A stretch of DNA of 25,158 nt from a bacterium (GTDB taxonomy: Bacteria > Patescibacteriota > Minisyncoccia > JAJYZQ01): the NCBI GenBank assembly GCA_021799835.1, contig JAJYZQ010000001.1, positions 1-25,158 on the forward strand. Direction: 5' to 3'. The notes under the pieces were generated by a model, which was given only the letters and a program-made list of their open reading frames with translations, ran no database searches and had not been told where the DNA came from. The stretch's first letter is position 1. The number at the start of each line of letters is the position of its first letter. The position numbers and the translations under genes were made by a program. Shown one piece after another: positions 10,603 through 16,090 of this stretch.

Positions 10603-12444
10603 ATGCAAAATAAACATTCTCGCTCGTCAGCAAAGAAGCTATCCAGAGAAAAAAAGCCGGACATTGAGATGATCCGACACTCACTGGCTCACCTTATGGC
10701 GGCTGCTATCAGCAAATTGTATAGCGGTGCAAAATTTGGCGTAGGCCCTGCGATAGATAATGGTTTTTATTATGATGTTGAGCTGCCGGATGGCGCGATG
10801 CCCGATCTGCATCGTATAGAGCAGGAAATGCGTCGCTTGGCAAAACAAAACCTGTCCTATGTGCGCAAAGAAATGCCGATCAAAGAAGCAGTTGCATTAT
10901 TTGATAAATTGGATCAGCCATACAAGCTGGATCTTTTGAACGATCTCGCACAGCTTGGCACGACAGATGCGCAAGCGATCAAGGAATTGCGCGAAGTTGC
11001 GGATGGTGCAAGGGGTGCAAAATCAGTAAGCGTTTATGAAACGGGAGAGTTTGTTGATCTTTGCCGCGGCCCGCACGTGAAAACGACCGCTCAATTGCCT
11101 TTGGAAGGATTAAAGCTCACGAAAATAGCGGGTGCATATTGGCGGGGTAATGCACAGAACACGATGTTGTCGCGCATTTATGGCGTCGCGTTTGCGACGA
11201 AGGCGGAGCTGGAAGACTATATAAAACTGCAGGAAGAAATAGAGCGGCGCGATCATCGCACTATTGCGAAGCGCCTCAAGCTCTTTACATTTTCCGAAGA
11301 TGTCGGGCCAGGCCTGCCGATATGGTTGCCGAATGGCGCACGGCTTTTACAGCTCTTAGAAAATTATGTGCGCGACGAAGAGGAAAAGGCAGGGTATCAG
11401 CACGTGCAGATGATGCACATTGCGCGGAAGCGCCTCTATGAGATATCTGGCCACTGGGAGCACTACAAGGAAGATATGTATGCGCCTATTGATGTGGACG
11501 GCGATCAATATGTGTTGAAGCCGATGAACTGCCCACATCACATTATGGTCTATAAGAATGATCCACATAGCTATAGGGATCTGCCGCTTCGTATAGCAGA
11601 AATGGCAACCGTGTACCGCTATGAAAAATCGGGCGAACTGCTCGGACTTTCTCGCGTACGCGGTTTTACCCAGAACGATGCGCATATTTTCTGCACGCTT
11701 GATCAGATTGACCGCGAGTTCACACAGTTTTTTCTGTTAATGAAAAAGATATACAAGCGCGCAGGCATTAAGGATTACTGGGTGCGGTTGTCGCTGCACG
11801 ACTCTCCTGATCTTGCTAAGTATGTGCATAATGAAAAGATGTGGAAATCAGCCGAAGCCGCATTGGAAAAGGCGCTTATCACGGCAAAAGTTCCGTACAG
11901 GAAAGTGAAAGGTGAGGCGGCGTTCTATGGGCCAAAGGCGGATATTATGGCAAAAGATGTTCTGGGTCGCGAGTATGCCATTTCCACCATTCAAATAGAT
12001 TTTTTCCTGCCGGAGCGGTTTGATCTGGAATATGTCGGCAAGGACGGCGCGAAATATCGCCCGGTAATGATTCATCGCGCTATTCTGGGGTCTGTTGAAC
12101 GATTCATTGCATTTTTACTTGAGCACACGGGTTGCGATTTGCCGCTTTGGTTGGCGCCGCGGCAGATAGCATTGATCACCGTTGCTGATAAACACACTGC
12201 ATACGCAAAAACGGCCTCCGCTGAATTGCGCAAAAACGGCTTCCGCGTGTGGGAATTGTTTGATAATGAAAGCGTTGGCAAAAAAACTCGCGAGGCACAA
12301 CTCCAAAAACTCCCGTATATAGCGGTCATCGGTGACCAAGAAAAGAAAAGCAAAACGATAACGGTACGGAAAAGCACCGCAAAGAAACTTACTACGTTTA
12401 AGCTATCAGCGCTGGTAGAGAAAATGCAGAAAGAGACCAGGTAA
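10603..12444 (+). CDS. thrS: Threonine--tRNA ligase (no N-terminal TGS domain)
   Basis: RHSLAH, DLCRGPH, GAYWRG, KPMNCPHH, YRYEKSGELLGLSRVRGFTQNDAH, AFYGPK, MIHRAILGSVERF. Confidence 0.99.
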   Translation: MQNKHSRSSAKKLSREKKPDIEMIRHSLAHLMAAAISKLYSGAKFGVGPAIDNGFYYDVELPDGAMPDLHRIEQEMRRLAKQNLSYVRKEMPIKEAVALFDKLDQPYKLDLLNDLAQLGTTDAQAIKELREVADGARGAKSVSVYETGEFVDLCRGPHVKTTAQLPLEGLKLTKIAGAYWRGNAQNTMLSRIYGVAFATKAELEDYIKLQEEIERRDHRTIAKRLKLFTFSEDVGPGLPIWLPNGARLLQLLENYVRDEEEKAGYQHVQMMHIARKRLYEISGHWEHYKEDMYAPIDVDGDQYVLKPMNCPHHIMVYKNDPHSYRDLPLRIAEMATVYRYEKSGELLGLSRVRGFTQNDAHIFCTLDQIDREFTQFFLLMKKIYKRAGIKDYWVRLSLHDSPDLAKYVHNEKMWKSAEAALEKALITAKVPYRKVKGEAAFYGPKADIMAKDVLGREYAISTIQIDFFLPERFDLEYVGKDGAKYRPVMIHRAILGSVERFIAFLLEHTGCDLPLWLAPRQIALITVADKHTAYAKTASAELRKNGFRVWELFDNESVGKKTREAQLQKLPYIAVIGDQEKKSKTITVRKSTAKKLTTFKLSALVEKMQKETR

Positions 12445-12465
12445 TAGTTTGACTGATGAAAAGCA

Positions 12466-12502
12466 AAAGCGGCCATTCACTCTGAGAGTGTCTGGCCGCT
12501 TT
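12466..12502. terminator. Bidirectional terminator-like hairpin between thrS and Cys/His microprotein 1
   Basis: AAAGCGGCCA-tt-CACTC-tga-GAGTG-tc-TGGCCGCTTT. Confidence 0.7.
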
Positions 12503-12503
12503 G

Positions 12504-12740
12504 TTATTGGGCAGGTCGTTGGCATTTGCTATGCCGATACCCTGCATTGCCGCCAACGCGGCCCGAAAGGACAATCTTTTTTGAGAATTCTGTGCAGCGG
12601 TCACAGCCCTCTTTACCACACACAAGACAACGCTTTCTCTGGTTGGGCTCTTCTCTGCCGTTCTCAGTTTGCCGGGGCTTTTTATGAATCGGCGCTCCGC
12701 AATGCTTGCAGCGATGATGGGGGTGATCTTTCCATCCCAT
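12504..12740 (-). CDS. Small Cys/His-rich putative zinc-binding protein, paralog 1 (78 aa)
   Basis: AAGGAGGG Shine-Dalgarno 6 nt before ATG 12740; C-x2-C-x23-C-x2-C-x4-C-x2-C-x20-H-x2-C; clear paralog of the next ORF. Confidence 0.8.
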   Translation of the reverse strand: MGWKDHPHHRCKHCGAPIHKKPRQTENGREEPNQRKRCLVCGKEGCDRCTEFSKKIVLSGRVGGNAGYRHSKCQRPAQ

Positions 12741-12767
12741 ACTCATCCCTCCTTTTCTATGATGTGT

Positions 12768-12796
12768 ACAGTACAAAATACTGCACATCCTGTCAA
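12768..12796 (-). promoter_or_regulatory. Promoter of microprotein 1
   Basis: TTGACA-17 bp-TACTGT. Confidence 0.65.
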
Positions 12797-12798
12797 TG

Positions 12799-12818
12799 AA
12801 AAAGGGCGCCGCAGCGCC
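12799..12818 (-). terminator. Intrinsic terminator after microprotein 2
   Basis: On the minus strand, GGCGC-tgcg-GCGCC followed by CTTTTT, just past the TGA at 12824. Confidence 0.55.
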
Positions 12819-12823
12819 AACGA

Positions 12824-13042
12824 TCAGGAAATGGAATGGCAGGTCTTATGCCGAAATCCTTGGTTGTTTGAGCCGGTGTCTTTAATGCGCGTGCAGCAGG
12901 CATCGCAGCCTTCTGTGCCGCATATCTTGCACGTGCGGCGCTTATTCGGCCCGTGCTTGATAGTGCCATACCACGACAATCCCTTATGGACCGGTTCATT
13001 GCAGTGTGCGCACCGTTGGTTCGGATGATCATTCCATCCCAC
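12824..13042 (-). CDS. Small Cys/His-rich putative zinc-binding protein, paralog 2 (72 aa)
   Basis: AGGGAGGG Shine-Dalgarno 7 nt before GTG 13042; same ligand spacing as paralog 1; 24 of the first 49 residues identical. Confidence 0.8.
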   Translation of the reverse strand: MGWNDHPNQRCAHCNEPVHKGLSWYGTIKHGPNKRRTCKICGTEGCDACCTRIKDTGSNNQGFRHKTCHSIS

Positions 13043-13075
13043 AGGAGATCCCTCCCTTATGCAAAGAATGAGTGT

Positions 13076-13104
13076 ATAGTGGAGTAAAACCGCCATATTG
13101 TCAA
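13076..13104 (-). promoter_or_regulatory. Promoter of microprotein 2
   Basis: TTGACA-17 bp-CACTAT. Confidence 0.5.
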
Positions 13105-13141
13105 TTGCGCAGAGTAAAAAGAGTTACCGAGTTGAATATGA

Positions 13142-13645
13142 TCACAAGAATTTTCCGGCGAGAATGCCTACTCCTATCGCTGCCCCGCCCACAATAAGCA
13201 TTTCTAGACCATTGCGGAATATGTGCCGCCGAGCAAATTTTCCACTGGTAATGCCGATAAGAAAAAGTGTTATCAAAGAGAGGATGACGGAAATGGCAAG
13301 TGCGTGGGTGCGGAAGATAAGATAAGGGAAGAGCGGTATGAATCCTACGGCAATAAATGATATGAACATCACTGCGCTAACCTGTATAGATACGATCAGA
13401 GGAGGTTCTTTGCTGTCTGTTAAAAAATCTTCCGCAGCGCGCTCTGAGAGAAACGCTCCAGCGGCCATAGAAAAGCCCTCTACGAGCAAATAAATGATGC
13501 CGGTGGCAAGAATGGTGTTTACGGTATGTTGAGACGAGATAGCGATACCAGATAATAATCCTACAGTAGACACGAGACTGTCTTCAACGCCGAATATAAG
13601 GCTGCGCACATAAGAAGAAGTTTTGGTATGTGTAAAATGCACCAT
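13142..13645 (-). CDS. VIT1/CCC1 family Fe/Mn transporter (short form)
   Basis: IFGVEDSLVSTVGLLSG and GFSMAAGAFLSE motifs; five hydrophobic segments. Confidence 0.88.
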   Translation of the reverse strand: MVHFTHTKTSSYVRSLIFGVEDSLVSTVGLLSGIAISSQHTVNTILATGIIYLLVEGFSMAAGAFLSERAAEDFLTDSKEPPLIVSIQVSAVMFISFIAVGFIPLFPYLIFRTHALAISVILSLITLFLIGITSGKFARRHIFRNGLEMLIVGGAAIGVGILAGKFL

Positions 13646-13656
13646 ACGTGCAAAAG

Positions 13657-14343
13657 TCAGTTATTATTGTTGTTGATGAATGCGCGCAGCGTTGCGTCGC
13701 CGTTGGCAACAATGAAGAAATTGTTTACGGATGCGTATGATAGTAACATATTATCTGTGGCAAGAGAGCTCAGTTCGTTGATGTTTGTTTGGCGATAAGG
13801 ATGGGTAGATAGGAGAAAGTCACTCTTGAGTGCGGTTTGAACGTCAGCGAGGTCATGTTCAAATTCTGCATTATTCTGGGGATTTTGGGTAAAAACAACT
13901 GCCCAGGAATGGTCAGGGTATTCAAAGACGTAAAAATTTCCTTGGAAAATGGATGGATATGCTGTGGCTATATCAAATCTCGCGGCTTTGAAAATGTTTT
14001 GTATGATGATATAGGTTTGTTCACTGAGGGCGGGGGAGCCGGAAAGAAATTGAGTGATGTGTGGCGTATTTGCAAAGAAGTAACGAGGAGACACGCTAAG
14101 TTCCAGAGCGTATCCTGCCGGCGCTATTGCAAGGATGTCTTCAGGAGGAGCACTGAACAATTGATATGCCCATACTGCTGCTCCGCCAATGCTGATACAG
14201 AGGAGAGTAAGGAGAACTATCCACCAGCGAGAGGGAGTGAGCGGATGAATATGCAGTTCTTCGGGCGATTTTAGTTTTATGGTGTCGGAAGAATTTTGCA
14301 GAGGTTCCTTCCGGACGATCTTTATCTGCTTAAAATAATCCAT
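13657..14343 (-). CDS. Hypothetical single-pass membrane protein
   Basis: 228-aa ORF in the same orientation as its neighbours, with one TM segment (WWIVLLTLLCISIGGAAVWAY). Confidence 0.75.
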   Translation of the reverse strand: MDYFKQIKIVRKEPLQNSSDTIKLKSPEELHIHPLTPSRWWIVLLTLLCISIGGAAVWAYQLFSAPPEDILAIAPAGYALELSVSPRYFFANTPHITQFLSGSPALSEQTYIIIQNIFKAARFDIATAYPSIFQGNFYVFEYPDHSWAVVFTQNPQNNAEFEHDLADVQTALKSDFLLSTHPYRQTNINELSSLATDNMLLSYASVNNFFIVANGDATLRAFINNNNN

Positions 14344-14370: not shown

Positions 14371-15945
14371 TTAGTGGGTTCGGCCGATGAGATTGAACAT
14401 AGAGTTCTTTGAGGTGGCAAGCAGGAAGAGATTTTTTGCCGTAGCAAATCCGTAGTCTATGGAAAGCTGTGGCGTAGGGAAGTTCATAAAGCGGATATCA
14501 ACGCCGTTATAAGCATTGACTTGGAATGTTGTCGTAGCGGGAGAAACATTCTGTGTCTGTAATGTTGGCGCTAAGCTCGTCGGAATGCTTGGCTCCCAAG
14601 CAAGCATAAAGTTTTGCAGCGCGGTGAGGTTAGAGTACTGCGCGGCTAATCCTAGGCGATTGTTTGTGCCATCAGCATAAATGAACAGCGTATAGGTATT
14701 GGGATTGACCATACCCATTAATGTACTGAGACAGCTGCTGTTTTGCGGTTGGCTGCAAATATTTGCGGGAACTGAAACATCAAGGGCACTGAATAGGTCG
14801 CTGAGCGGCATATAGCTCGTGGCGTTTTGGTTTTGCGTCACAATAACAACGCGGGTAAACGTATTCGGAGTGTACTGTTCTTTCAATAAGCCGAGCAGAT
14901 TTATCGCAAGCAAGCTCAAGTTATTCGGATCAGCAGTGATAGTTTTTGTTGCATCAACCGAGAAAAGGGTCTGAGGAATAGGAAGGGTTTGCGCGGCAGT
15001 TGCGGGTGCGGTGGATGGCGACGTTGCTGGCGTAGTAACCGAGGCGGTTGATGGTGTGGTTGCGGGGTTGGTCGCTGAAGTGGATGGTATAGTGACCGGA
15101 GCGGTAGAGGGCTGTGTCACCGTAAGCTGCTTGCCGGTCTGATGGTGTGGCAAGTAGATGAAATCATAGTAATAAAGTCCCCCGCCGCCGAGTATGATAA
15201 CGAGAAGCAAGATAATCACTGCTGCCAAGGGAAATGTTTTGTGCGGCTGGGGGGTGCGGGGAGGAGGGGGAGTGTGCGGAGTAGGAATAGGTGGTTTTTT
15301 TGCGCCGAGTATTGGTGGAATTGGCGGCTTGGACAAGATAGGCGGTTGTTCTGCACGGGAAGCGTGAGGAATAGGAGGTTTTGTTGTATTAGGGATTGGG
15401 GGGACGTTTGCGCCAATAGGTCCTTTGCCAAAAAGCGCAGCAGGAGGAGTAAGTGAAGGCTCACCATTGCTGGGATGAGACTCTTGGGCAATGAAATGGG
15501 GAACAGGCGCTGCTGCAGAGAGTTTCGGTTTTGCGGCCTCTTCACGCATAATAGGTGGCTTGATAGGTGCAGGAGGAACTTGATTGGGAAAAGGAGAAAG
15601 CGGCGGCATCTTTGGCGCTGCGGGAAACGGCGGTTGCCCCATATCAGAAGTGGGCTTATTCAAGGGCTCCGGAGCGATAGTTGCCGGAATAGGTGCCGGT
15701 GTGCTCAATGGTTTCACCGGTTCTGTAGGTTTTGCAAATATTCCCGCAGGGGGCTGCACTGCGTTAATGCCAGGAGCAGAAGGAATTTTTTCCGGTGCGG
15801 GTGGCGCAAGAGGAGAGCGTTGAGCTGAAGGATTTTGCATATCGCCCTGCATAGTGCGAATGTCATATTCCTTCCCGCCGATATTCATAGTCTGATTTTG
15901 CTGGAGCGTGTTGAGATTTTGCGTGTTTGCTTTTTCGTTTGCCAT
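14371..15945 (-). CDS. Proline-rich single-pass membrane protein with Thr/Pro/Ser linker and globular C-terminal domain
   Basis: Pro-rich ~235-aa N-terminal region, TM segment LAAVIILLLVIILGGGGLYYY, T/P/S-rich stalk. Start taken at ATG 15945 (alternative 15972). Confidence 0.8.
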   Translation of the reverse strand: MANEKANTQNLNTLQQNQTMNIGGKEYDIRTMQGDMQNPSAQRSPLAPPAPEKIPSAPGINAVQPPAGIFAKPTEPVKPLSTPAPIPATIAPEPLNKPTSDMGQPPFPAAPKMPPLSPFPNQVPPAPIKPPIMREEAAKPKLSAAAPVPHFIAQESHPSNGEPSLTPPAALFGKGPIGANVPPIPNTTKPPIPHASRAEQPPILSKPPIPPILGAKKPPIPTPHTPPPPRTPQPHKTFPLAAVIILLLVIILGGGGLYYYDFIYLPHHQTGKQLTVTQPSTAPVTIPSTSATNPATTPSTASVTTPATSPSTAPATAAQTLPIPQTLFSVDATKTITADPNNLSLLAINLLGLLKEQYTPNTFTRVVIVTQNQNATSYMPLSDLFSALDVSVPANICSQPQNSSCLSTLMGMVNPNTYTLFIYADGTNNRLGLAAQYSNLTALQNFMLAWEPSIPTSLAPTLQTQNVSPATTTFQVNAYNGVDIRFMNFPTPQLSIDYGFATAKNLFLLATSKNSMFNLIGRTH

Positions 15946-16090
15946 AGCACAAAATCGCCGTAAAAAATGCACTGTTCAGCAGAGCTATTTATTTACTGCA
16001 ATACAATAAATGAGTGGTCTCACACAATCGCGTATATGCCCAATAAACGAGAGAGCAGAAGAGATTGGAGAGATTATTGGTATTGTACAC

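What the first reader, a model, noticed from the sequence alone, without database searches (positions are those of the whole stretch)
12466..13104. Two tandem, self-contained expression cassettes for paralogous microproteins
Seen: each gene has its own TTGACA-17-(-10) promoter, a strong GGAGG-type Shine-Dalgarno at 6-7 nt, an ORF starting MGW[KN]DHP, and a downstream terminator hairpin (12799-12818 and 12466-12502). The proteins share 24 of the first 49 residues with no gaps plus G[YF]RHxxC, but diverge elsewhere. Neighbouring core genes such as dnaE and thrS lack an obvious SD. The six-frame track gives both ORFs wrong, longer starts, so pipelines may mis-call or drop them. Inference: an old duplication kept under selection for ligand spacing, giving a strongly and independently expressed microprotein family I cannot assign to a named family.
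Basis: partly seen in the sequence, partly recalled or inferred. Interest (0 to 1): 0.75.

Follow-up and report, generated by a model that had tools for sequence, protein, structure and literature searches.

The report
Tandem FYVE-like zinc-finger microprotein genes
Two neighbouring small genes in an uncultured, tiny-genome bacterium from mine waste each have their own promoter and strong ribosome-binding site, and encode old paralogues (72 and 78 aa) of a very rare, unnamed two-zinc protein family whose predicted fold is closest to the FYVE finger; what they bind is unknown.

Summary
Minus-strand genes A (12824-13042, GTG start, 72 aa) and B (12504-12740, ATG start, 78 aa) are 41% identical paralogues. 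Each has an exact TTGACA, a weak -10 at 17 nt and a GGAGG Shine-Dalgarno at 7-8 nt. This genome rarely uses Shine-Dalgarno sites.

Three corrections:
- The -10 boxes match the consensus at only 3 of 6 positions.
- The hairpin between the genes is weak and is degraded in a 98%-identical strain.
- Gene A's ribosome-binding site and start codon lie inside a -14.7 kcal/mol hairpin, while gene B's are open.

No expression data could be found.

An exhaustive profile search found only five more members (66-157 aa), all from metagenomes. Invariant residues include eight Cys/His zinc ligands. No Pfam, NCBIfam or PDB sequence match is significant. AlphaFold models of both proteins (pLDDT 68-72) have FYVE or FYVE-related fingers as their best matches in four structure libraries. 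The FYVE phosphoinositide-binding motifs are absent.

My reading: these are stand-alone, basic, binuclear zinc-finger binding modules, duplicated long ago and diverged in two surface loops. The ligand is unknown.

In relatives the gene is single-copy, lies behind a long structured leader with a terminator, and is linked or fused to a second small domain. Another note of this scan (e1-5289613) had already proposed a FYVE-like finger here.

The parts
13099..13104 (-). -35 hexamer TTGACA of gene A's promoter
   Evidence: Read directly. It is identical to the hexamer upstream of gene B, although the spacer is randomised. TTGACA is under-represented genome-wide. It is unchanged in strain contigs L004 and L005.
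13076..13081 (-). Putative -10 hexamer CACTAT of gene A, 17 nt after the -35
   Evidence: Read directly. It matches TATAAT at 3 of 6 positions, so the scan did not list it. It lies in the block ACT[AG]TACAC, which is 8 of 9 identical at the same distance upstream of gene B.
13050..13056 (-). Shine-Dalgarno site GGGAGGG of gene A (GGAGG lies 8 nt before the GTG)
   Evidence: It pairs with CUCCU in a predicted hairpin of -14.7 kcal/mol (z -2.2) that also holds the start codon.
12824..13042 (-). Gene A: 72-aa binuclear zinc-finger protein (GTG start), stop codon included
   Evidence: The AF2 model has FYVE domains as its best PDB matches. The protein is not in public protein collections. Against the strain contigs it shows one synonymous and one loop substitution.
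12799..12818 (-). Weak terminator-like hairpin (5 bp, GC-rich) plus T-run, between genes A and B
   Evidence: Listed by the scan. Folding gives -11.9 kcal/mol and z -0.9. In strain L004 the substitutions at 12815, 12812 and 12811 leave a 3-bp stem.
12791..12796 (-). -35 hexamer TTGACA of gene B's promoter
   Evidence: Direct repeat D5, shared with gene A's upstream region.
12768..12773 (-). Putative -10 hexamer TACTGT of gene B, 17 nt after the -35 and preceded by TTG
   Evidence: Read directly; 3 of 6 matches to the consensus. Other TTGACA-plus-Shine-Dalgarno cassettes in the genome have the same layout, TTGACA-N14-TTG-TAnnnT.
12748..12752 (-). Shine-Dalgarno site GGAGG of gene B, 7 nt before the ATG
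   Evidence: The initiation region is unstructured, at -1.4 kcal/mol.
12504..12740 (-). Gene B: 78-aa binuclear zinc-finger protein (ATG start), stop codon included
   Evidence: The AF2 model has FYVE-type best matches in four libraries. A 99%-identical protein, P0003, occurs on two other contigs.
12466..12502 (.). Strong intrinsic-terminator hairpin between the convergent gene B and thrS, probably used in both directions
   Evidence: Inverted repeat I1: 18-nt arms, 89% complementary. The stretch 12440-12520 that contains it folds at -26.3 kcal/mol, z -4.9. A T-run follows the stem on the minus strand. thrS ends at 12444.

Best explanation
These are two real, separately promoted paralogous genes. 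Each encodes a stand-alone, basic (pI 9.1-9.8), roughly 75-aa protein. Eight conserved ligands are predicted to hold two structural zinc ions in a cross-braced, FYVE-like treble-clef fold: CxxC, 23 residues, CxxC-G-x3-CxxC, a variable loop, then HxxC.

I infer that the proteins are not enzymes but small binding modules. The conserved non-ligand residues sit where FYVE domains carry their ligand-pocket motifs. These are W3-x-[DE]-H-P at the N-terminus and N33-x-R35-[KR] just before the third Cys. I therefore propose that they bind an anionic, phosphate-bearing partner. My rough split of the likely partner:
- nucleic acid or ribonucleoprotein, about 40%
- a protein partner, about 30%
- an anionic lipid head group, about 15%
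- a role in metal handling, about 15%

The duplication is ancient. The core is kept, while two surface segments (residues 20-31 and 50-66) have diverged completely, which suggests two specificities. The paralogues also differ in their translation signals. B has an ATG and an open ribosome-binding site. A has a GTG and a hairpin over the ribosome-binding site.

Shown: the gene structure, the paralogy, the family and its constraint, the conserved signals, and the best structural match.

Inferred: zinc binding and its connectivity, expression, and the ligand.
For: - Paralogy and family. The two proteins are 41% identical, E 1e-18. An exhaustive HMM search of 1.84 billion representatives found four further small homologues, and a fifth came from the word-index search. 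Invariant residues are M1, W3, C11, C14, N33, R35, C38, C41, G45, C46, C49, H70 and C73.
- Selection. Codon-position differences between the paralogues are 19/18/32. P0005 against P0010 gives dN/dS of 0.34-0.51. Of the four substitutions between strains, two are synonymous and two lie in the variable loops.
- Signals. TTGACA (6/6), ACTrTACAC (8/9) and the Shine-Dalgarno block are conserved between the two upstream regions, while the spacer is identical at only 6 of 18 positions. The relatives also carry TTGACA and AAGGAGGTG.
- Fold. The two models have pLDDT 72 and 68 and pTM 0.52.
  - Foldseek against the PDB: the top hits for both models are FYVE or FYVE-related (EEA1, RUFY, Vps27, ZFYVE, Rab effectors), with probability 0.8-0.99 and E 0.06-0.4.
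  - VIA-align against 48,161 chains: the top 13 are all FYVE-type at Z 3.7-5.0, then a drop to 2.7.
  - AFDB clusters and the ESM Atlas give the same result.
- Weak Pfam hits across members fall in the same clan: FYVE, FYVE_CARP1-2 and PHD-like.
- All members are basic.
Against: - No significant sequence match to FYVE or to any other family.
- The structural scores are modest for a small domain (TM 0.45-0.58, Z at most 5). The models rest on an 8-sequence alignment.
- The FYVE signature motifs (WxxD, R[RK]HHCR, RVC) are not present as such.
- No transcript, peptide or binding data exist.
- Gene neighbourhoods give no consistent functional hint. Here the neighbours are VIT1 and thrS. In two relatives they are fpg and recO.
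Confidence: 0.6

Rival explanations
1. The proteins have a metal-handling role. They would buffer, store or chaperone Zn, Fe or another metal ion, in the manner of a metallothionein, and would be linked to the upstream VIT1-family transporter and to the metal-rich mine habitat.
For: - The genome recurs in mine-tailings and mine-drainage metagenomes.
- A VIT-family gene lies directly upstream on the same strand, with no terminator in between.
- Each protein has 7-8 Cys and 6 His, including non-ligand His (H6, H13, H19) shared by the two window copies.
- One relative's locus has rubrerythrin/ferritin-like, FeS-assembly and radical-SAM neighbours.
Against: - Only eight ligands are conserved across the family, enough for two ordinary structural sites. 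H13 and H19 are not conserved.
- Cysteine is about 10% of residues, well below metallothioneins (that comparison is from my own knowledge).
- Conserved W, N, R and G residues and a defined fold point to a binding surface rather than a metal sponge.
- The VIT1 link is absent from all five relatives' loci.
- No metallothionein family was reported even at E up to 10.
Confidence: 0.12
2. The pair is one bicistronic operon, or is co-transcribed with VIT1, not two independent cassettes. The second TTGACA would then be a relic of the duplication, and the hairpin between the genes would not terminate transcription.
For: - The hairpin at 12805-12818 is weak (z -0.9) and is reduced to 3 bp in a 98%-identical strain.
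- Both -10 boxes are poor, at 3 of 6.
- There is no terminator after VIT1.
Against: - Synonymous sites between the copies are saturated, yet the -35, the -10 block and the Shine-Dalgarno site are kept at fixed spacing while the spacer is randomised. A relic would have decayed.
- No strain variant touches these elements.
- Other cassettes in the genome share the TTGACA-N14-TTG-TAnnnT layout.
- Read-through and an internal promoter are not mutually exclusive.
Confidence: 0.2
3. The ORFs are not translated. They would be chance ORFs or decaying pseudogenes, or alternatively precursors of secreted or modified Cys-rich peptides.
For: - Gene A is missing from public gene calls.
- There is no expression evidence.
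- The family is extremely rare: none was found in 400 sampled genomes of the phylum or in 60 genomes of the class.
Against: - Homologues with the same N-terminus and the same ligands occur in five other lineages.
- The family is under purifying selection.
- Both genes have strong ribosome-binding sites at the correct distance.
- There is no signal peptide or leader/core architecture, and no modification enzyme nearby.
- The models fold with confidence similar to other small zinc fingers.
Confidence: 0.04

Closest known systems
FYVE zinc finger (Pfam PF01363; e.g. EEA1, Vps27, Hrs)
   Same: - Domain of about 60-70 residues with four ligand pairs.
- The central spacing C-x2-C-G-x3-C-x2-C is identical.
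- A Trp/acidic motif lies 7-8 residues before the first Cys, and a basic cluster lies directly before the third Cys.
- It is the best structural match for both models in every library searched.
   Different: - It is bacterial and stand-alone.
- The seventh ligand is His, not Cys.
- An 11-residue beta-hairpin insertion lies between ligand pairs 1 and 2.
- WxxD is replaced by W-x-[DE]-H-P, R(R/K)HHCR by N-x-R-[KR]-x-C, and RVC by [YFL][RY]H.
- The Pfam score of 11.4 bits is far below the 27.8-bit cut-off.
- Phosphatidylinositol 3-phosphate binding is therefore not expected.
FYVE-related zinc fingers of Rab effectors (Pfam FYVE_2: rabphilin-3A, melanophilin, MyRIP, RIM)
   Same: - The same fold, also without the phosphoinositide motifs.
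- These fingers act as protein-binding or structural modules.
- Among the best matches (2zet, 1zbd, 2cjs and 5x6t at Z 4.1-4.5; MyRIP and melanophilin rows with rmsd 2.0-2.3 A).
   Different: - They are eukaryotic.
- They are embedded between helices that contact the GTPase.
- There is no sequence similarity beyond the ligands.
Prokaryotic binuclear treble-clef fingers (Prok-RING families, bacterial B-box; Burroughs, Iyer and Aravind 2011, as cited in PMC4999995 and PMC4506424)
   Same: - Bacterial, small, cross-braced two-zinc domains.
- Weak hits to Prok-RING_2 (E 0.08-0.1).
- Bacterial B-box clusters appear among the language-model and fold neighbours.
   Different: - No hit reaches a family threshold.
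- The ligand pattern and the N-terminal motif differ.
- There is no link to ubiquitin-like or membrane-protease genes in any of the loci.
- I could not read the primary paper; it is not held in the library.
Bacterial metallothionein SmtA/BmtA
   Same: A small Cys/His-rich zinc protein with a zinc-finger-like core. It is relevant to metal-rich habitats.
   Different: - It has a much higher ligand density and forms a Zn4 cluster (from my own knowledge).
- No sequence or fold match was found here.

Membership tests
FYVE zinc finger (PF01363) | Score above Pfam's gathering threshold | tested here: not met
   The best is 11.4 bits, E 0.36, against a cut-off of 27.8. Only 2 of 8 members give any hit.
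FYVE zinc finger (PF01363) | Eight zinc ligands in four pairs, with the central C-x2-C-G-x3-C-x2-C block | tested here: met
   Alignment A3: C11/C14, C38/C41, C46/C49 and H70/C73 are invariant, G42 is usual and G45 is invariant. The seventh ligand is His instead of Cys.
FYVE zinc finger (PF01363) | Fold superposes on solved FYVE domains | tested here: met
   FYVE or FYVE-related chains are the top matches for two models, with two aligners and four libraries. The scores are only moderate: Foldseek probability 0.8-0.99 with E 0.06-0.4, VIA Z 3.7-5.0 against 2.7 for the next fold, and TM 0.45-0.58.
FYVE zinc finger (PF01363) | Cross-braced connectivity (pairs 1+3 and 2+4 each hold one zinc) | not testable with these tools
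   Model coordinates are not exposed and AlphaFold2 places no metal. The connectivity is inferred only from the fold match.
FYVE zinc finger (PF01363) | Phosphoinositide-pocket motifs WxxD, R(R/K)HHCR and RVC (motifs recalled from the literature) | tested here: not met
   The family has W-x-[DE]-H-P, N-x-R-[KR]-x-C and [YFL][RY]H-x2-C at the corresponding places. The mapping of places is by spacing, not by a residue-level structural alignment.
Prokaryotic RING finger family 2 (PF14445) | Score above Pfam's gathering threshold | tested here: not met
   13.3 bits, E 0.096, against a cut-off of 22.4. The match covers only residues 36-49.
Metallothionein-like metal sponge | Sequence match to a metallothionein family, or a ligand count well beyond two structural sites | tested here: not met
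   No such family was reported at E up to 10. Only eight ligands are conserved.
Sigma-70-type promoter | -35 TTGACA, a spacer of 16-18 nt, -10 TATAAT | tested here: inconclusive
   The -35 is 6/6 and the spacer is 17 nt in both. The -10 is only 3/6 (A2 and T6 present), which is below the scan's threshold. Conservation between the paralogues' upstream regions supports function. No transcript start data exist.
Intrinsic terminator | GC-rich stem followed by a U-run, more stable than shuffled sequence | tested here: met
   12466-12502: the stretch 12440-12520 that contains it folds at -26.3 kcal/mol, z -4.9. For 12805-12818 the criterion is not met: z -0.9, and the stem is degraded in strain L004.

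The most novel reading that the evidence does not exclude
This is a bacterial, free-standing relative of the FYVE finger. It would use the conserved W-x-[DE]-H-P and N-x-R-[KR] positions to recognise a phosphorylated ligand, either a lipid head group or a nucleotide/nucleic-acid phosphate. In relatives it would be switched on through a previously undescribed attenuator with a translated leader, and would work with a small partner whose only family lead is a below-threshold LeuA allosteric-domain hit (E 0.022). That would make it a prokaryotic counterpart of a domain regarded as eukaryotic, tied to a nutrient-sensing circuit in reduced-genome bacteria.
Probability: 0.1. Interest if true: 0.75.

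Novelty: new variant of a known kind. Interest (0 to 1): 0.45.

Why it matters
- Small proteins of ultra-small uncultured bacteria are largely unannotated. Here one of the two genes is absent from a collection of about 15 billion predicted proteins, although it carries clear expression signals.
- The family has about seven known members and no name. Its predicted fold is best matched by FYVE fingers, whose solved examples and nearest predicted matches in these searches are almost all eukaryotic. A few bacterial hypothetical and B-box rows appear among them.
- If the fold and zinc binding are confirmed, the family adds a free-standing bacterial branch to the FYVE/PHD-like binuclear treble clefs. 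It would also give a compact, easily expressed model for asking what such a module binds in a cell without endomembranes.
- The contrast between the two promoter-only copies here and the leader-controlled single copies in relatives is a natural experiment in how regulation of a microprotein changes after duplication.

Tried and rejected
- **Sequence families.** Pfam and NCBIfam scans of both proteins and of all eight aligned members gave nothing significant. A profile search of PDB sequences gave only chance CxxC matches.
- **A third copy in the genome.** The hit on contig C101 is an off-frame match inside an S1-domain gene and contains a stop. I rejected it.
- **P0004 and P0009 from the profile search.** These are long repetitive proteins that match only short stretches. 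They are not family members.
- **Matches in G375 and G383.** Both are weak and interrupted by stops. I rejected them.
- **Taxonomy from ThrS.** The best matches are 43-49% identical and spread over many phyla, so no placement is possible. The assembly has no 16S gene, so I could not check the anti-Shine-Dalgarno sequence. RecO of relative L010 is at most about 40% identical to genomes of the window's phylum. This is compatible with the same phylum but not decisive.
- **Expression.** No RNA run holds the stretch. Three metatranscriptomes from the same study gave no contig on 8 kb that included housekeeping genes. This is uninformative, not negative.
- **dN/dS between the paralogues.** It could not be computed because dS is saturated.
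- **Rfam.** There was no match in 11800-13800 or on the relatives' leaders. The only leader hit is Trp_leader at E 0.065, below threshold.
- **Covariance model of the relatives' leader.** Searched in 150 genomes of the phylum and in the window's own genome, it hit generic hairpins on both strands. The best hit is the 3' end of a beta-lactamase-fold ribonuclease-like gene plus its terminator. The window's own genome had no hit.
- **The partner domain of relatives.** It was not found in the window's genome with that one query.
- **Operator-like palindromes at the two promoters.** None was seen.
- **Complex prediction.** I did not use it, because I make no claim that A and B bind each other.
Full report
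**What is there**

On the minus strand, between a VIT-family transporter gene (13142-13645) and the convergent thrS (10603-12444), lie two short ORFs.
- Gene A is 12824-13042. It has a GTG start, encodes 72 aa and begins MGWNDHP.
- Gene B is 12504-12740. It has an ATG start, encodes 78 aa and begins MGWKDHP.

The proteins are 41% identical (E 1e-18).

The mechanical longest-ORF starts (13096 and 12788) would put the promoters inside the coding regions. They are wrong, because every homologue starts at M-[AGP]-W.

**Expression signals**

| Element | Gene A | Gene B |
|---|---|---|
| -35 TTGACA | 13104-13099 | 12796-12791 |
| Spacer | 17 nt | 17 nt |
| -10 hexamer | CACTAT, 13081-13076 | TACTGT, 12773-12768 |
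| GGAGG to start codon | 8 nt | 7 nt |

- Both -10 boxes match the consensus at only 3 of 6 positions, and the consensus scan did not list them.
- The strongest argument that they function is comparative. Synonymous sites between the paralogues are saturated: differences by codon position are 19/18/32 of 49, and dS is not computable. The 18 bases after the -35 are identical at only 6 positions. Yet TTGACA (6/6), the block ACT[AG]TACAC (8/9) and the AAGGAGGGAT-type Shine-Dalgarno site are kept at the same distances.
- None of these elements changes in two 98%-identical strain contigs. Those contigs do carry a substitution in the spacer and a 3-nt insertion in B's 5' UTR.
- The signals stand out in this genome. 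GGAGG precedes the longest start of 10 of 457 long ORFs. dnaE and thrS have no Shine-Dalgarno site. TTGACA occurs 129 times against about 285 expected. Only nine TTGACA sites are followed by a Shine-Dalgarno site and an ORF, and two of the nine are these genes.

**Terminators and the difference between the two genes**

- The hairpin at 12466-12502 is strong: the stretch 12440-12520 that contains it folds at -26.3 kcal/mol, z -4.9. It lies between the two convergent genes.
- The hairpin at 12805-12818 between A and B is weak (z -0.9). In strain L004, three substitutions leave a 3-bp stem. Read-through from A into B is therefore likely.
- Gene A's Shine-Dalgarno site and GTG lie inside a predicted hairpin of -14.7 kcal/mol (z -2.2). 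Gene B's initiation region is open, at -1.4 kcal/mol.
- The paralogues are probably not equally translated, and 'strongly expressed' is unproven.
- No RNA run holds the stretch. Contigs of three metatranscriptomes from the same study cover none of the 8 kb laid, housekeeping genes included. That result is uninformative.

**The organism**

- The assembly has 537 kb in 101 contigs, is 77% complete and has 47.7% GC.
- Near-identical DNA occurs in mine-tailings, mine-drainage, sediment and soil metagenomes from eight studies.
- The closest genomes held are only of the same class.
- ThrS gives no placement and there is no 16S gene.
- The phylum's genomes are 0.4-2.1 Mb, mostly around 1 Mb. This fits an ultra-small-genome lineage, but I cannot name it.

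**The family**

- Word-index searches found only a 99%-identical strain variant of B and nothing for A.
- The exhaustive HMMER search of 1.84 billion representatives, using the pair's profile, found four true small homologues: P0005, P0006, P0008 and the N-terminal 66 residues of the 157-aa P0007. A fifth, P0010, came from a second search.
- None was found in 60 genomes of the class or 400 of the phylum.
- Invariant residues are M1, W3, C11, C14, N33, R35, C38, C41, G45, C46, C49, H70 and C73. That is eight ligands in four pairs, plus a few non-ligand positions.
- P0005 against P0010 gives dN/dS of 0.34-0.51.
- All members are basic, with pI 8.2-9.8.
- Gene B is in the public collection. Gene A is not, in either its short or its long form, and the gene call on contig L004 leaves a 405-nt gap where A lies.

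**Fold**

- No family is significant by sequence. Weak hits scatter over the FYVE/PHD/RING clan.
- AlphaFold2 with the 8-sequence alignment gives pLDDT 72 for B and 68 for A, pTM 0.52, with six short strands.
- Foldseek against the PDB ranks FYVE or FYVE-related chains first for both models. These include EEA1 (1joc), RUFY (2yw8), Vps27 (1vfy), rabphilin (1zbd) and melanophilin (2zet), with probability 0.8-0.99 and E 0.06-0.4.
- An exhaustive alignment against 48,161 representative chains puts thirteen FYVE-type chains first at Z 3.7-5.0, then drops to 2.7.
- AFDB clusters and the ESM Atlas agree. They also show unnamed bacterial proteins of 78-113 aa with a similar shape.
- The central spacing C-x2-C-G-x3-C-x2-C is that of FYVE. 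The conserved Trp/acidic motif before the first Cys and the basic N-x-R-[KR] before the third Cys sit where FYVE has WxxD and R(R/K)HHCR. I make this mapping by spacing and from recalled motifs.
- The motifs themselves are not present, the seventh ligand is His, and there is an extra beta-hairpin between pairs 1 and 2.
- I therefore file this as FYVE-like in fold, not as a member of the FYVE family.
- Another note of this scan (e1-5289613) proposed the same fold from ligand spacing. The fold searches here test and support it.

**Function**

Nothing was measured, so this is inference. A 75-aa, basic, two-zinc domain with a conserved surface patch is most simply a binding module.
- Between A and B the core is conserved, while residues 20-31 and 50-66 are unrelated. 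This suggests two specificities.
- The metal-handling alternative rests on the habitat and the VIT1 neighbour. It is weakened because only eight ligands are conserved and because no relative has that neighbour.

**Relatives add context**

In all five relatives' loci the gene is single-copy and lies about 190-245 nt downstream of a TTGACA promoter. The leader contains:
- an invariant ATG that opens a 19-27-codon, Ile/Leu/Val/Pro-rich ORF;
- a long stem, with nine pairs in the stem and terminator together keeping pairing through changes on both sides;
- a segment (GGGAGGC or GGAGAC) complementary to the 5' arm of a following intrinsic terminator;
- a strong Shine-Dalgarno site after that terminator.

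This looks like a transcription attenuator. It matches no Rfam family, and a covariance model of it found only generic hairpins elsewhere.

In L015 the next gene downstream is homologous to the C-terminal half of the fused protein P0007 (E 1e-8). That domain has a weak LeuA allosteric-domain hit (E 0.022). It was not found in the window's genome with this query.

The window's two copies have no leader and no partner.

**Verdict**

- It is unproven on expression strength.
- It is probably too generous on gene A being self-contained.

Noticed in passing
L006:1357-1565, L015:266-511, L008:3015-3209, L009:764-952, L010:6357-6544: In all relatives the family gene lies behind a long leader of 190-245 nt. 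The leader has a TTGACA promoter, an invariant ATG opening a 19-27-codon hydrophobic (Ile/Leu/Val/Pro-rich) ORF, a long covarying stem, a segment complementary to the terminator's 5' arm, an intrinsic terminator, and then AAGGAGGTG. It looks like an undescribed attenuator and has no Rfam match. The window's copies lack it.
   Followed up: partly
L015:863-1135; P0007 residues 60-157 (L009:950-1423): The gene after the zinc-finger gene in L015, and a truncated copy in L006/L007, is homologous to the C-terminal half of the 157-aa fused protein P0007 (E 1e-8). This is a neighbour/fusion link to a small domain with a weak LeuA allosteric-domain hit (E 0.022). The domain was not found in the window's genome with this query.
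   Followed up: partly
L015:509-661: An extra 50-aa ORF sits between the leader terminator and the family gene. It carries C-x2-C-x4-C-x2-C, resembling the central block of the family. It may be a truncated second copy, which would mean duplication has happened more than once.
   Followed up: no
L009:2-754 and L010:5533-6351: In two of the five relatives' loci the family gene directly follows fpg (formamidopyrimidine DNA glycosylase). In L010 it precedes recO, with uvrA nearby. There is no such link in the window.
   Followed up: no
whole genome G000 (e.g. C19:2358-2651, C17:4359-5051, C43:1461-2027, C101:8829-9461, C35:405-773, C85:70-288): Shine-Dalgarno sites are rare in this genome, and TTGACA is at less than half its expected count. 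A small set of mostly short or unannotated genes shares the TTGACA-17-TAnnnT promoter and an A/G-GGAGGGAT-type ribosome-binding site. This may be a distinct class of highly expressed or recently acquired genes.
   Followed up: partly
window 12765 (between 12765 and 12764 on the minus strand): Both strain contigs (L004, L005) carry a 3-nt CAT insertion in gene B's 5' UTR, between the -10 region and the Shine-Dalgarno site. The ACATCAT repeat is expanded there.
   Followed up: no
window 13025-13070 (minus strand): Gene A's Shine-Dalgarno site (GGGAG) pairs with CUCCU just before the GTG, in a hairpin of -14.7 kcal/mol (z -2.2). Gene B has no such structure. This could be a translational control specific to gene A.
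   Followed up: partly
window 13657-14343 and 14371-15972 (minus strand): Two sizeable ORFs (228 and 533 aa) upstream of VIT1 have no Pfam match at E 0.001 or better.
   Followed up: no
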